From Octopus vulgaris (taxonomy: Eukaryota): a stretch of DNA of 64,000 nt. Shown piece by piece: positions 35,435 to 35,815 of the stretch; positions within the stretch are counted from its first letter, which is position 1, and the number at the start of each line of letters is the position of its first letter. The stretch lies in NCBI GenBank assembly GCA_951406725.2, contig OX597820.1, positions 100,254,001-100,318,000 on the forward strand, read 5' to 3'. A program made the position numbers and the translations under genes. The notes under the pieces are model-generated. The model did not search any database. It had not been told where the DNA came from and was given only the letters and a program-made list of their open reading frames with translations.

Positions 35435-35815
35435 CCTTGTTTAAAATTAGATGTCTTGCAAACAACTTGCACATGCAAGTGCTACCAGTCAAAAACTCCG
35501 CATACTGGAAGCCAGCAAGTGTATGGGGTCATCAGGAGAGAATGCGCGCCGTTTCGGAGCCTACCTCTCGACGGCATCAATGCGCACCCACCTCACTGAT
35601 ATGAGGCTCCGCTTGCTAGATCAGCTGGTTATCAAATAAAGCTCAATATCCTTCTAGCCATCGCTCATCGTCTCTTTTTAACCGAATCCAATGGCTAGCC
35701 TTCTCCACTGTAGATTTGATATCGGTCATCGTGGTATTGGCTTTACAATGAGTTAGGCCTAGCGATAACAACAGTCGTCTCACACTGTTTCCAACGAACC
35801 CTTTACATCCAATTT
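35435..35815 (-). mobile_element. 3' end of a HERO-like RLE non-LTR retrotransposon
   Basis: EIGCKGFVGNSVRRLLLSLGL...VEKASHWIRLKRDDERW fits the HERO C-terminal pattern E(V/I)GCRGF...AExASxWxWxKR; structured 3' UTR follows. Confidence 0.75.

What the first reader, a model, noticed from the sequence alone, without database searches (positions are those of the whole stretch)
35512..35624. Non-colinear, pseudoknotted hammerhead-like motif in a HERO retrotransposon 3' UTR
Seen on the minus strand, ~20 nt after the stop: CUAGCAAG-C-GGAGCCU ... GCCG-UC-GAGAG-GU-AGGCUCC-GAAA-CGGC-GCGCAUU-CUCUC-CUGAUGA-CCCCAUACA-CUUGCUGG. Every hammerhead part is present and pairs: stem III GCCG/CGGC with GUC and GAAA, stem I GAGAG/CUCUC before CUGAUGA, stem II GGAGCCU/AGGCUCC before GAAA, plus an extra helix CUAGCAAG/CUUGCUGG next to stem II. 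The strand order fits none of types I, II or III: stem I crosses to stem II by a 2 nt linker and CUGAUGA comes after GAAA. Inference: a new hammerhead topology (or a dimeric form) that could process or present the 3' end of the element RNA. Known LINE ribozymes are mostly 5' HDV-like.
Basis: partly seen in the sequence, partly recalled or inferred. Interest (0 to 1): 0.8.

Follow-up and report, generated by a model that had tools for sequence, protein, structure and literature searches.

The report
Rewired hammerhead ribozyme in HERO retrotransposons
The tail of a widespread family of jumping genes carries a conserved RNA fold with all the parts of a hammerhead self-cutting RNA wired in an order we found described nowhere; it likely cuts the element's RNA into one-unit pieces that would close into circles for copying, though the copy in this window is a damaged one.

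Summary
Real, and conserved far beyond this window. The same strand order of hammerhead parts lies behind the ORF in 47 of 73 related metagenome loci (controls 0/73, 0/73, 1/1460), with base-pair exchanges in five helices across 29 sequence families. The order is the published 'type SGC' permutation (Eckert 2023, PMC10085705), so non-colinearity itself is known. But SGC needs CUGAnGA joined to stem II; here that link is absent in 30 of 30 families: a long helix and a hairpin sit between A9 and G10.1, and the stem II 5' strand lies upstream of the cut. In the own genome the family is young, tail-less, and forms head-to-tail partial tandems with a gap-free junction (25/25) and no 5' ends at the predicted cut (0/30), as expected of a circular RNA template. 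Cleavage and circles are untested.

The parts
35447..35816 (-). 3' fragment of a HERO-type RLE non-LTR retrotransposon (last 57 codons, 3' UTR, tail-less end)
   Evidence: 90.6% identical to unit positions 3369-3737 of an intact copy, L062; 2473 first-look candidates in G000, 40 scored at 90-100%
35643..35816 (-). C-terminus of the ORF (end of the restriction-like endonuclease region) and stop codon
   Evidence: same end as 1099-1175 aa open frames with RVT_1
35512..35619 (-). whole hammerhead-like motif; damaged copy
35607..35619 (-). 5' strand of helix P0 (outer 8 bp 35619-35612; inner 4 nt 35610-35607, one mismatch in this copy)
   Evidence: P0 of 7 bp or more in 19 of 25 families against 21% in shuffles; pair types
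35591..35606 (-). hairpin between P0 and the stem II 5' strand
   Evidence: 4-14 bp hairpin in 27 of 29 parsed families
35589..35590 (-). remnant of the true stem II 5' strand, deleted in this copy
   Evidence: alignment of 30 copies; 48 of 77 parsed G000 copies keep the full tract
35582..35588 (-).
35565..35575 (-). block S: stem III 5' strand, U16.1, C17, predicted cut between 35570 and 35569, stem I 5' strand
   Evidence: sequence; cut site by analogy with hammerheads, untested
35548..35561 (-). block G: stem II 3' strand, GAAA, stem III 3' strand
35541..35547 (-). 3' strand of the interaction helix
35529..35540 (-). stem I 3' strand and CUGAUGA core
35512..35528 (-). 3' strand of P0, directly after A9 (where a canonical or SGC hammerhead has the stem II 5' strand)
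35817..36182 (-). 3' end of an unrelated L1/Tx1-like LINE (label recalled) joined to the HERO fragment at unit position 3369
   Evidence: 92% identical to five chimeric loci; zf-RVT in the related frame

Best explanation
The 3' UTR of HERO-type retrotransposons holds a conserved five-helix RNA with a complete hammerhead core in a rewired topology, which likely self-cleaves to cut one-unit RNAs out of tandem transcripts, and these would be closed into circles that serve as the template for insertion. SHOWN: order P0(5') - hairpin - II(5') - interaction(5') - III(5') - UH - I(5') - II(3') - GAAA - III(3') - interaction(3') - I(3') - CUGAnGA - P0(3'); this is the type-SGC topology with its ends joined and re-opened between A9 and N10.1. 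SHOWN: insertions have no tail, no fixed 5' end, run through the unit junction and through the predicted cut without a scar, and both copies of a tandem share their lineage variants. INFERRED: cleavage after H17 (window 35570). INFERRED: a transcript over a partial tandem has two ribozymes and releases a 3737-3738 nt monomer; four of the five helices (P0, II, interaction, III) pair across the cut and would clamp the monomer's two ends for ligation (by the ribozyme or a host RtcB-type ligase). INFERRED: the element's endonuclease/RT primes about 118 nt downstream of the ligated site with a few bases of homology and copies round the circle, so that more-than-unit insertions renew the two-ribozyme master. 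The window copy is a 5'-truncated, chimeric, stem II-deleted and probably inactive copy. Odds by step: conserved hammerhead-type fold 0.95; self-cleavage in intact copies 0.75; circular template 0.55.
For: Motif in 47 of 73 loci, controls 0/73 reverse strand, 0/73 coding, 1/1460 shuffles; 13 of the 26 misses score above the control maximum in a relaxed search. Stem II + interaction helix in 20 of 25 families against 5.7% of shuffles, P0 in 19 of 25 against 21%. Pairing 0.92-1.00 per helix against 0.48-0.71 with strands swapped between families; up to 4 Watson-Crick types per position; G10.1-C11.1 in 28 of 29; G16.2-C15.2 in 27 of 29. With a helix-only descriptor that asks for no core letter, the best fold reads out U16.1, GAAA and CUGAnGA in 28 of 44 hits, H17 never G (C 11, A 10, U 7). 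One contig (L121) has U3 with A8 and two relatives U3 with G8, the C3-G8 exchange known from active hammerheads (PMC3088659 section 8). SGC ribozymes cleave and need the same interaction helix (PMC10085705). An extra base between A9 and G10.1 is tolerated in a viroid hammerhead (PMC3705267 passage). Tandems; 5' ends of 30 near-full copies scatter from beyond -1499 to +57, 18 pass the cut at -122, none within 15 nt of it; junction gap-free in 25 of 25 spanning loci; 21 of 51 terminal copies run 2-6 nt into the junction sequence; 49 non-majority variants shared by both copies within 7 of 12 tandem loci; head-to-tail layout in 8 of 41 and UTR upstream of the ORF in 5 of 26 metagenome loci; a 1283-nt contig that closes on itself through motif and junction in run X1, and the junction in X5 and X6.
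Against: No cleavage or ligation data. None of the papers seen shows that a hammerhead works when A9 and N10.1 are not joined; PMC10085705 assumes they must be, and two of three substitutions of the viroid's extra base were strongly harmful. Copies reading through the cut fit equally with a ribozyme that does not cut the template. No array with two junctions was seen: longest 1.53 units (L070), and none of 15 short-unit loci holds two full units. Three of the six youngest tandems have a G-run one base shorter in the upstream copy than in the downstream copy (one has the reverse), and two other differences recur in two loci each: this could mean a shared linear dimer master. The self-closing contig could be a DNA tandem; the runs are only guessed to be RNA. 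U3-A8 rests on one contig whose relaxed score (12) lies within the control range (max 14). 13 of 73 loci have no motif above control. Families share ancestry and many loci come from a few samples, so exchanges are not independent events; the 5' strands of II, interaction and P0 were chosen by pairing, so, not the swap control, is their fair test.
Confidence: 0.55

Rival explanations
1. The ribozyme cleaves, but the template stays linear: the upstream copy's ribozyme makes the 5' end (as HDV-like ribozymes do for R2), the downstream one is held inactive, and RT crosses to a second RNA through the 118-nt terminal overlap.
For: Explains refreshed, seamless tandems without ligation; 5' processing ribozymes are known in non-LTR elements (cited in PMC4209133 discussion).
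Against: Predicts a pile-up of 5' ends at the cut; 0 of 30 lie within 15 nt of it. Needs two identical motifs to behave differently.
Confidence: 0.17
2. The fold is no longer catalytic: it is a hammerhead-derived protein-binding or template-recognition element for the element's RT, and tandems come from read-through transcripts or template jumps.
For: A9-N10.1 link absent in 30 of 30 families; insertions read through the site; 3' UTR structures bind RT in R2 elements (recalled).
Against: The catalytic letters, non-G at H17, free N7 and the U3-A8 exchange follow the rules of cleavage; jumps at RNA ends should leave ragged junctions and 5' ends at the unit start, seen in 0 of 25 junctions and 1 of 30 ends.
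Confidence: 0.15
3. The ribozyme cleaves as a brake or RNA-turnover switch (it removes the last 118 nt needed for priming), and tandems arise separately, by insertion of a new copy at the 5' end of an older one or from a few long master arrays.
For: The cut would detach the priming end; shared G-run difference in three young tandems.
Against: Independent insertions would not give a base-exact junction in 25 of 25 loci nor shared lineage variants in both copies.
Confidence: 0.1
4. The motif works only as a dimer of two RNAs or two tandem copies.
For: Dimeric hammerheads occur in Penelope-like elements (PMC4209133 passages).
Against: All helices are long enough to form within one copy; swapping strands between copies does not rejoin A9 to N10.1; copies are 3.7 kb apart.
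Confidence: 0.03

Closest known systems
Type-SGC hammerhead ribozymes (HRIMA-1 and variants; Eckert et al. 2023, PMC10085705)
   Same: Order S-G-C; short linker from stem I 5' strand to stem II 3' strand (typically 3 nt there, 1-7 here); a helix joining the outer ends of stems I and II; full core.
   Different: In SGC CUGAnGA runs straight into stem II; here it runs into a separate helix P0 and the stem II/interaction 5' strands lie upstream of the cut, behind a hairpin. SGC was found only in metatranscriptomes ('no RNAs in genomes of known organisms' bar one GCS candidate); this one is in a retrotransposon of an animal-size genome and in metagenome DNA.
Hammerheads of Penelope-like elements (Cervera and de la Pena 2014, PMC4209133)
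   Same: Ribozyme in the repeated end of an autonomous retroelement with head-to-tail partial tandems; the paper proposes circular RNA templates and more-than-unit reverse transcription.
   Different: PLEs have minimal type I motifs with low activity that seem to need dimers, a telomerase-like RT and GIY-YIG nuclease; this element has an R2-like RT and PD-(D/E)xK-type C-terminus.
Animal non-LTR retrozymes (Cervera and de la Pena 2020, PMC7229834)
   Same: Tandem units cut by hammerheads into monomers that circularise (RtcB far better than self-ligation in vitro); proposed tandem cDNA from circles.
   Different: 170-400 nt, non-coding, type I hammerhead, mobilised in trans; here a 3.7-kb coding, autonomous unit (plus 1.0-1.3 kb internally deleted derivatives).
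HDV-like ribozymes at the 5' end of R2 and other non-LTR elements (cited in PMC4209133; otherwise recalled)
   Same: Self-cleaving RNA that frees the element RNA from a longer transcript.
   Different: Different ribozyme class; defines a fixed 5' end, which this family lacks.
CChMVd (+) hammerhead with extra A10 (PMC3705267 passage)
   Same: Natural interruption at the same A9/G10.1 step.
   Different: One base, backbone continuous; here two helices and a strand break.

Membership tests
Hammerhead ribozyme | Core CUGAnGA, GAAA, UH with H not G | tested here: met
   Window; 27 of 29 families CUGAnGA, 2 with U3 variants; read out without asking for it in 28 of 44 helix-only hits
Hammerhead ribozyme | Stems I, II, III with base-pair exchanges; G10.1-C11.1 preferred | tested here: met
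   in the window copy the family's stem II 5' strand is deleted
Hammerhead ribozyme | Stem I-II interaction | tested here: met
   5-10 bp helix in 26 of 29 parsed families; 7 bp in the window
Hammerhead ribozyme | Site-specific self-cleavage after H17 | not testable with these tools
   needs an assay; only contigs, no raw RNA reads, were listed
Hammerhead types I, II, III | Circular order C-G-S, three-way junction without pseudoknot | tested here: not met
   order is S-G-C; no Rfam hammerhead hit
Type-SGC hammerhead (Eckert 2023) | Block order S, G, C with short I-to-II linker and interaction helix | tested here: met
Type-SGC hammerhead (Eckert 2023) | Intact block C: CUGAnGA followed within 1-2 nt by the stem II 5' strand | tested here: not met
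   direct pairing run 0 in 27, 1 in 1, 2 in 2 of 30 families; with offsets 0-2 and G-U allowed, 3 bp or more in 6 of 25 (no null computed), and in those the upstream stem II strand is as long or longer
RLE-type non-LTR retrotransposon | One ORF with RT, zinc knuckle and C-terminal PD..E..K nuclease region | tested here: met
   RVT_1 at 439-683 of 1175 aa; best PDB matches R2 proteins; CC-H-C and PD..ELT..K motifs read by eye in translations
HERO clade | RT phylogeny grouping with named HERO elements | not tested
Retrozyme / PLE-type circular template cycle | Head-to-tail more-than-unit insertions with a ribozyme in each unit | tested here: met
Retrozyme / PLE-type circular template cycle | Unit-length circular RNA in cells | tested here: inconclusive
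   self-closing 1283-nt contig in X1, but RNA is a guess and a DNA tandem gives the same
Retrozyme | Short, non-coding, non-autonomous unit | tested here: not met
   3.7-kb unit with intact ORF

The most novel reading that the evidence does not exclude
HERO retrotransposons are LINEs that replicate through a circular RNA: a seventh natural hammerhead topology, opened inside the catalytic core between A9 and G10.1, cuts unit-length monomers and clamps their ends for ligation, and the R2-like protein primes inside the circle, so the element has no true ends.
Probability: 0.45. Interest if true: 0.92.

Novelty: new variant of a known kind. Interest (0 to 1): 0.8.

Why it matters
It would break the stated rule that the CUGAnGA block cannot be split, add a hammerhead topology beyond the six proposed, and place non-circularly permuted hammerheads in cellular genomes at thousands of copies, where standard models miss them. 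It also makes the long-proposed circular-template model for retroelements (PLEs, retrozymes) directly testable in an autonomous, young family with intact ORFs, and would be a case of target-primed reverse transcription starting inside a circle in an R2 relative. The fold alone (about 110 nt) can be tested in a day.

Tried and rejected
Rfam scan: nothing at the motif. MFE folding: cannot show the pseudoknots, z -1.81. First translation was in the wrong frame (corrected). Viral-contig scan: 43 pattern matches, none confirmed. Canonical SGC reading rejected. First overhang count used a junction offset by 4 nt and was redone. Search for arrays with two or more junctions among short-unit loci found none. 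Sequencing runs: no RNA holder listed; contigs only, so no RNA ends, strand or level. Splicing as source of the internal deletions: the skip ends listed are not GT..AG and breakpoints vary; not pursued. Earlier findings by sequence and by a second word set: nothing. Not in print as far as searched: (listings only, held library only; Repbase reports and most subscription journals are not covered).

Full report
1. Observation. By itself this is weak: a minimal descriptor finds the site once in the window but 8 times in 30 shuffled windows, the MFE fold is another rod (z -1.81), and Rfam has no match here.

2. The element. The 370-nt fragment (35816-35447) is 90.6% identical to the end of a 3737-3738 nt unit. 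G000 (2.8 Gb) gave 2473 first-look candidates, of which 40 were scored; a protein search gave 150 scored matches, several in open frames of 1099-1175 aa, about 99.5% identical to one another. The ORF has RVT_1, best PDB matches to R2 proteins, and 250 relatives at E <= 1e-20, named ones from fish and bivalves. PMC4640811 (passages) lists HERO as one of five RLE clades, mostly not target-specific.

3. Conservation of the fold. One metagenome scan with a C-terminal alignment confirmed 188 stretches and kept the best 80; 7 with under 200 nt downstream were left out. In 47 of 73, UH, GAAA and CUGAnGA occur in this order with stems I and III within 350 nt after the match; reverse strand 0/73, coding 0/73, shuffles 1/1460. 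Of the 26 misses, 13 score above the control maximum in a relaxed search; L121 and L166 look like the motif by eye but score within the control range; 11 gave nothing or a low score. Among 20 copies of older families in G000, 4 score above control and about six more are recognisable by eye. 49 motifs fall into 25 families under 75% identity. Taking the first member of each, stem II plus an interaction helix is found in 20 of 25 (shuffled upstream 5.7%) and a helix P0 starting right after CUGAnGA in 19 of 25 (21%). With five relaxed hits added, 29 of 30 families parse (L135 did not; a few parses, e.g. L109, L112, L119, L124, picked a poor P0): pairing 0.96 (I), 1.00 (II), 0.97 (III), 0.92 (interaction), 0.95 (P0), against 0.57, 0.62, 0.71, 0.50, 0.48 with partners swapped between families, and mostly 3-4 Watson-Crick types per position. 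A helix-only descriptor is loose (44 of 73 hits, 24 on the reverse strand) yet its best fold reads out the whole core in 28 of 44, with H17 never G. L121 has U3 with A8, L104 and L105 U3 with G8; C3-G8 to U3-A8 is a known exchange in active hammerheads (PMC3088659, section 8 read). Caveats: families are related, many loci share a few samples, hosts were not determined.

4. Topology. PMC10085705 (parts 1-6 of 8 read: all results and discussion; supplements not opened) defines blocks S, G, C, names six orders, and shows that type SGC cleaves and needs a helix joining stems I and II. But block C is split: the base after CUGAnGA does not pair with the base before GAAA in 27 of 30 families and the run never reaches 3 bp. 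The strand before GAAA pairs instead with a strand upstream of the cut that starts with G (G10.1-C11.1 in 28 of 29) and runs straight into the interaction helix; the first pair of P0 is free (five types). So the true stem II is upstream-fed and P0 plus a hairpin are inserted at the A9/N10.1 step. This is SGC with its ends joined and re-opened inside the core; it is none of the six. A one-base insertion at this step exists in a viroid hammerhead, with mixed effects of substitutions (PMC3705267 passage). Whether a strand break there is compatible with catalysis is the main open point.

5. The window copy. The family has two similar G-rich tracts upstream. Young copies use the second for stem II and the first for P0 and the hairpin (nested sub-fold -33.0 against -16.5 kcal/mol; one copy has a double change in that register). 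It is probably inactive (inference). It also carries 366 nt of another LINE upstream.

6. How insertions look. Full-length copies are often preceded by a 5'-truncated copy of their own end (370, 720, 1681, 1981 nt). For the 30 best of 71 candidates matching the first 200 nt of the unit, 5' ends scatter from beyond -1499 to +57; 18 pass the predicted cut at -122 (two of these end at the other LINE's insertion), 7 lie between cut and junction, 5 inside the unit, none within 15 nt of the cut. The junction aligns without a gap in 25 of 25 spanning loci. There is no tail; of 51 terminal ends (some loci counted twice across two searches) 21 run 2-6 nt into the junction sequence. In 12 tandems (2 of 14 dropped: only one 3' copy found) both copies share 49 non-majority variants in 7 loci; against this, a G-run is one base shorter upstream in 3 of the 6 youngest and downstream in 1, and two more differences recur in two loci each; lists were cut at 12 per locus. 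No array with two junctions was seen (longest 1.53 units; 0 of 15 short-unit loci). Metagenome loci show head-to-tail layout in 8 of 41 and the UTR upstream of the ORF in 5 of 26 (collapsed assemblies can mimic this only if the junction exists). Run X1 has a 1283-nt contig that closes on itself through motif and junction of an internally deleted unit; X5 and X6 show the junction, X7 does not list it; RNA is only guessed.

7. Mechanism. A linear RNA starting at the cut would leave 5' ends there; jumps between RNA ends would leave ragged junctions. Neither is seen. A circle made from a cut-to-cut monomer explains no tail, no 5' boundary, exact junctions, internal priming and renewed tandems. The odd wiring then has a use: P0, II, interaction and III all pair across the cut and would hold the monomer's ends together. 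This cycle was proposed for Penelope-like elements (PMC4209133 passages) and supported for animal retrozymes (PMC7229834 passages). Cleavage, ligation and internal priming are all inferred. Rivals: linear template with strand transfer (0.17), non-catalytic binding element (0.15), cleavage as a brake (0.10), dimer (0.03).

8. Novelty. Nine searches of the held library (listings) found no report of a hammerhead in HERO elements or of this split form; PMC7650587 (passages) uses HERO only as a clade. Repbase and most subscription journals were not searched. An earlier scan note on another genome saw the partial tandems (e1-9866375; seen after my); the part shown names no ribozyme. Verdict: new variant of a known kind, interest 0.8; it works like an SGC hammerhead but fails SGC membership.

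Noticed in passing
window 35817-36182 (-); L262-L266, L089, L091: An L1/Tx1-like LINE (label recalled; zf-RVT) sits at exactly HERO unit position 3369 in all five chimeric loci fetched, each with a different 5' truncation and HERO sequence upstream (four reach the site, three of them overlapping it by 7-23 nt): it looks like a LINE that targets HERO itself. The window copy has no HERO upstream, so the chimera may have been re-mobilised from the HERO end.
   Followed up: partly
L212-L214, L237-L248; run X1: Internally deleted 1.0-1.3 kb derivatives keep about 670-850 nt of the 5' part and the last 320-430 nt with the motif; breakpoints differ but cluster (several near 689 to 3395). Retrozyme-like non-autonomous units; the kept 5' part may hold a promoter or packaging signal.
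   Followed up: partly
L146, L148, L163, L178: HERO-like C-termini with no motif; the DNA behind them reads like further coding sequence resembling a ubiquitin-specific protease start (by eye and recall): a lineage with an added domain or a different end.
   Followed up: no
L182-L201: At least two older HERO-like families in G000 carry decayed forms of the same motif; L199 and L200 are close in UTR sequence to metagenome family L132/L144/L145, a possible horizontal transfer.
   Followed up: no
L062 1-2885 and 8833-9901: The tandem HERO at L062 is inserted into a long open frame of another LINE-like element (960 aa upstream, 384 aa downstream frames).
   Followed up: no
window 28120-30850 and 31482-33165 (+): A 2.7-kb TA microsatellite, and next to it a broken RTE-like LINE 3' half with C-terminal zinc-finger-like repeats (by eye).
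   Followed up: no
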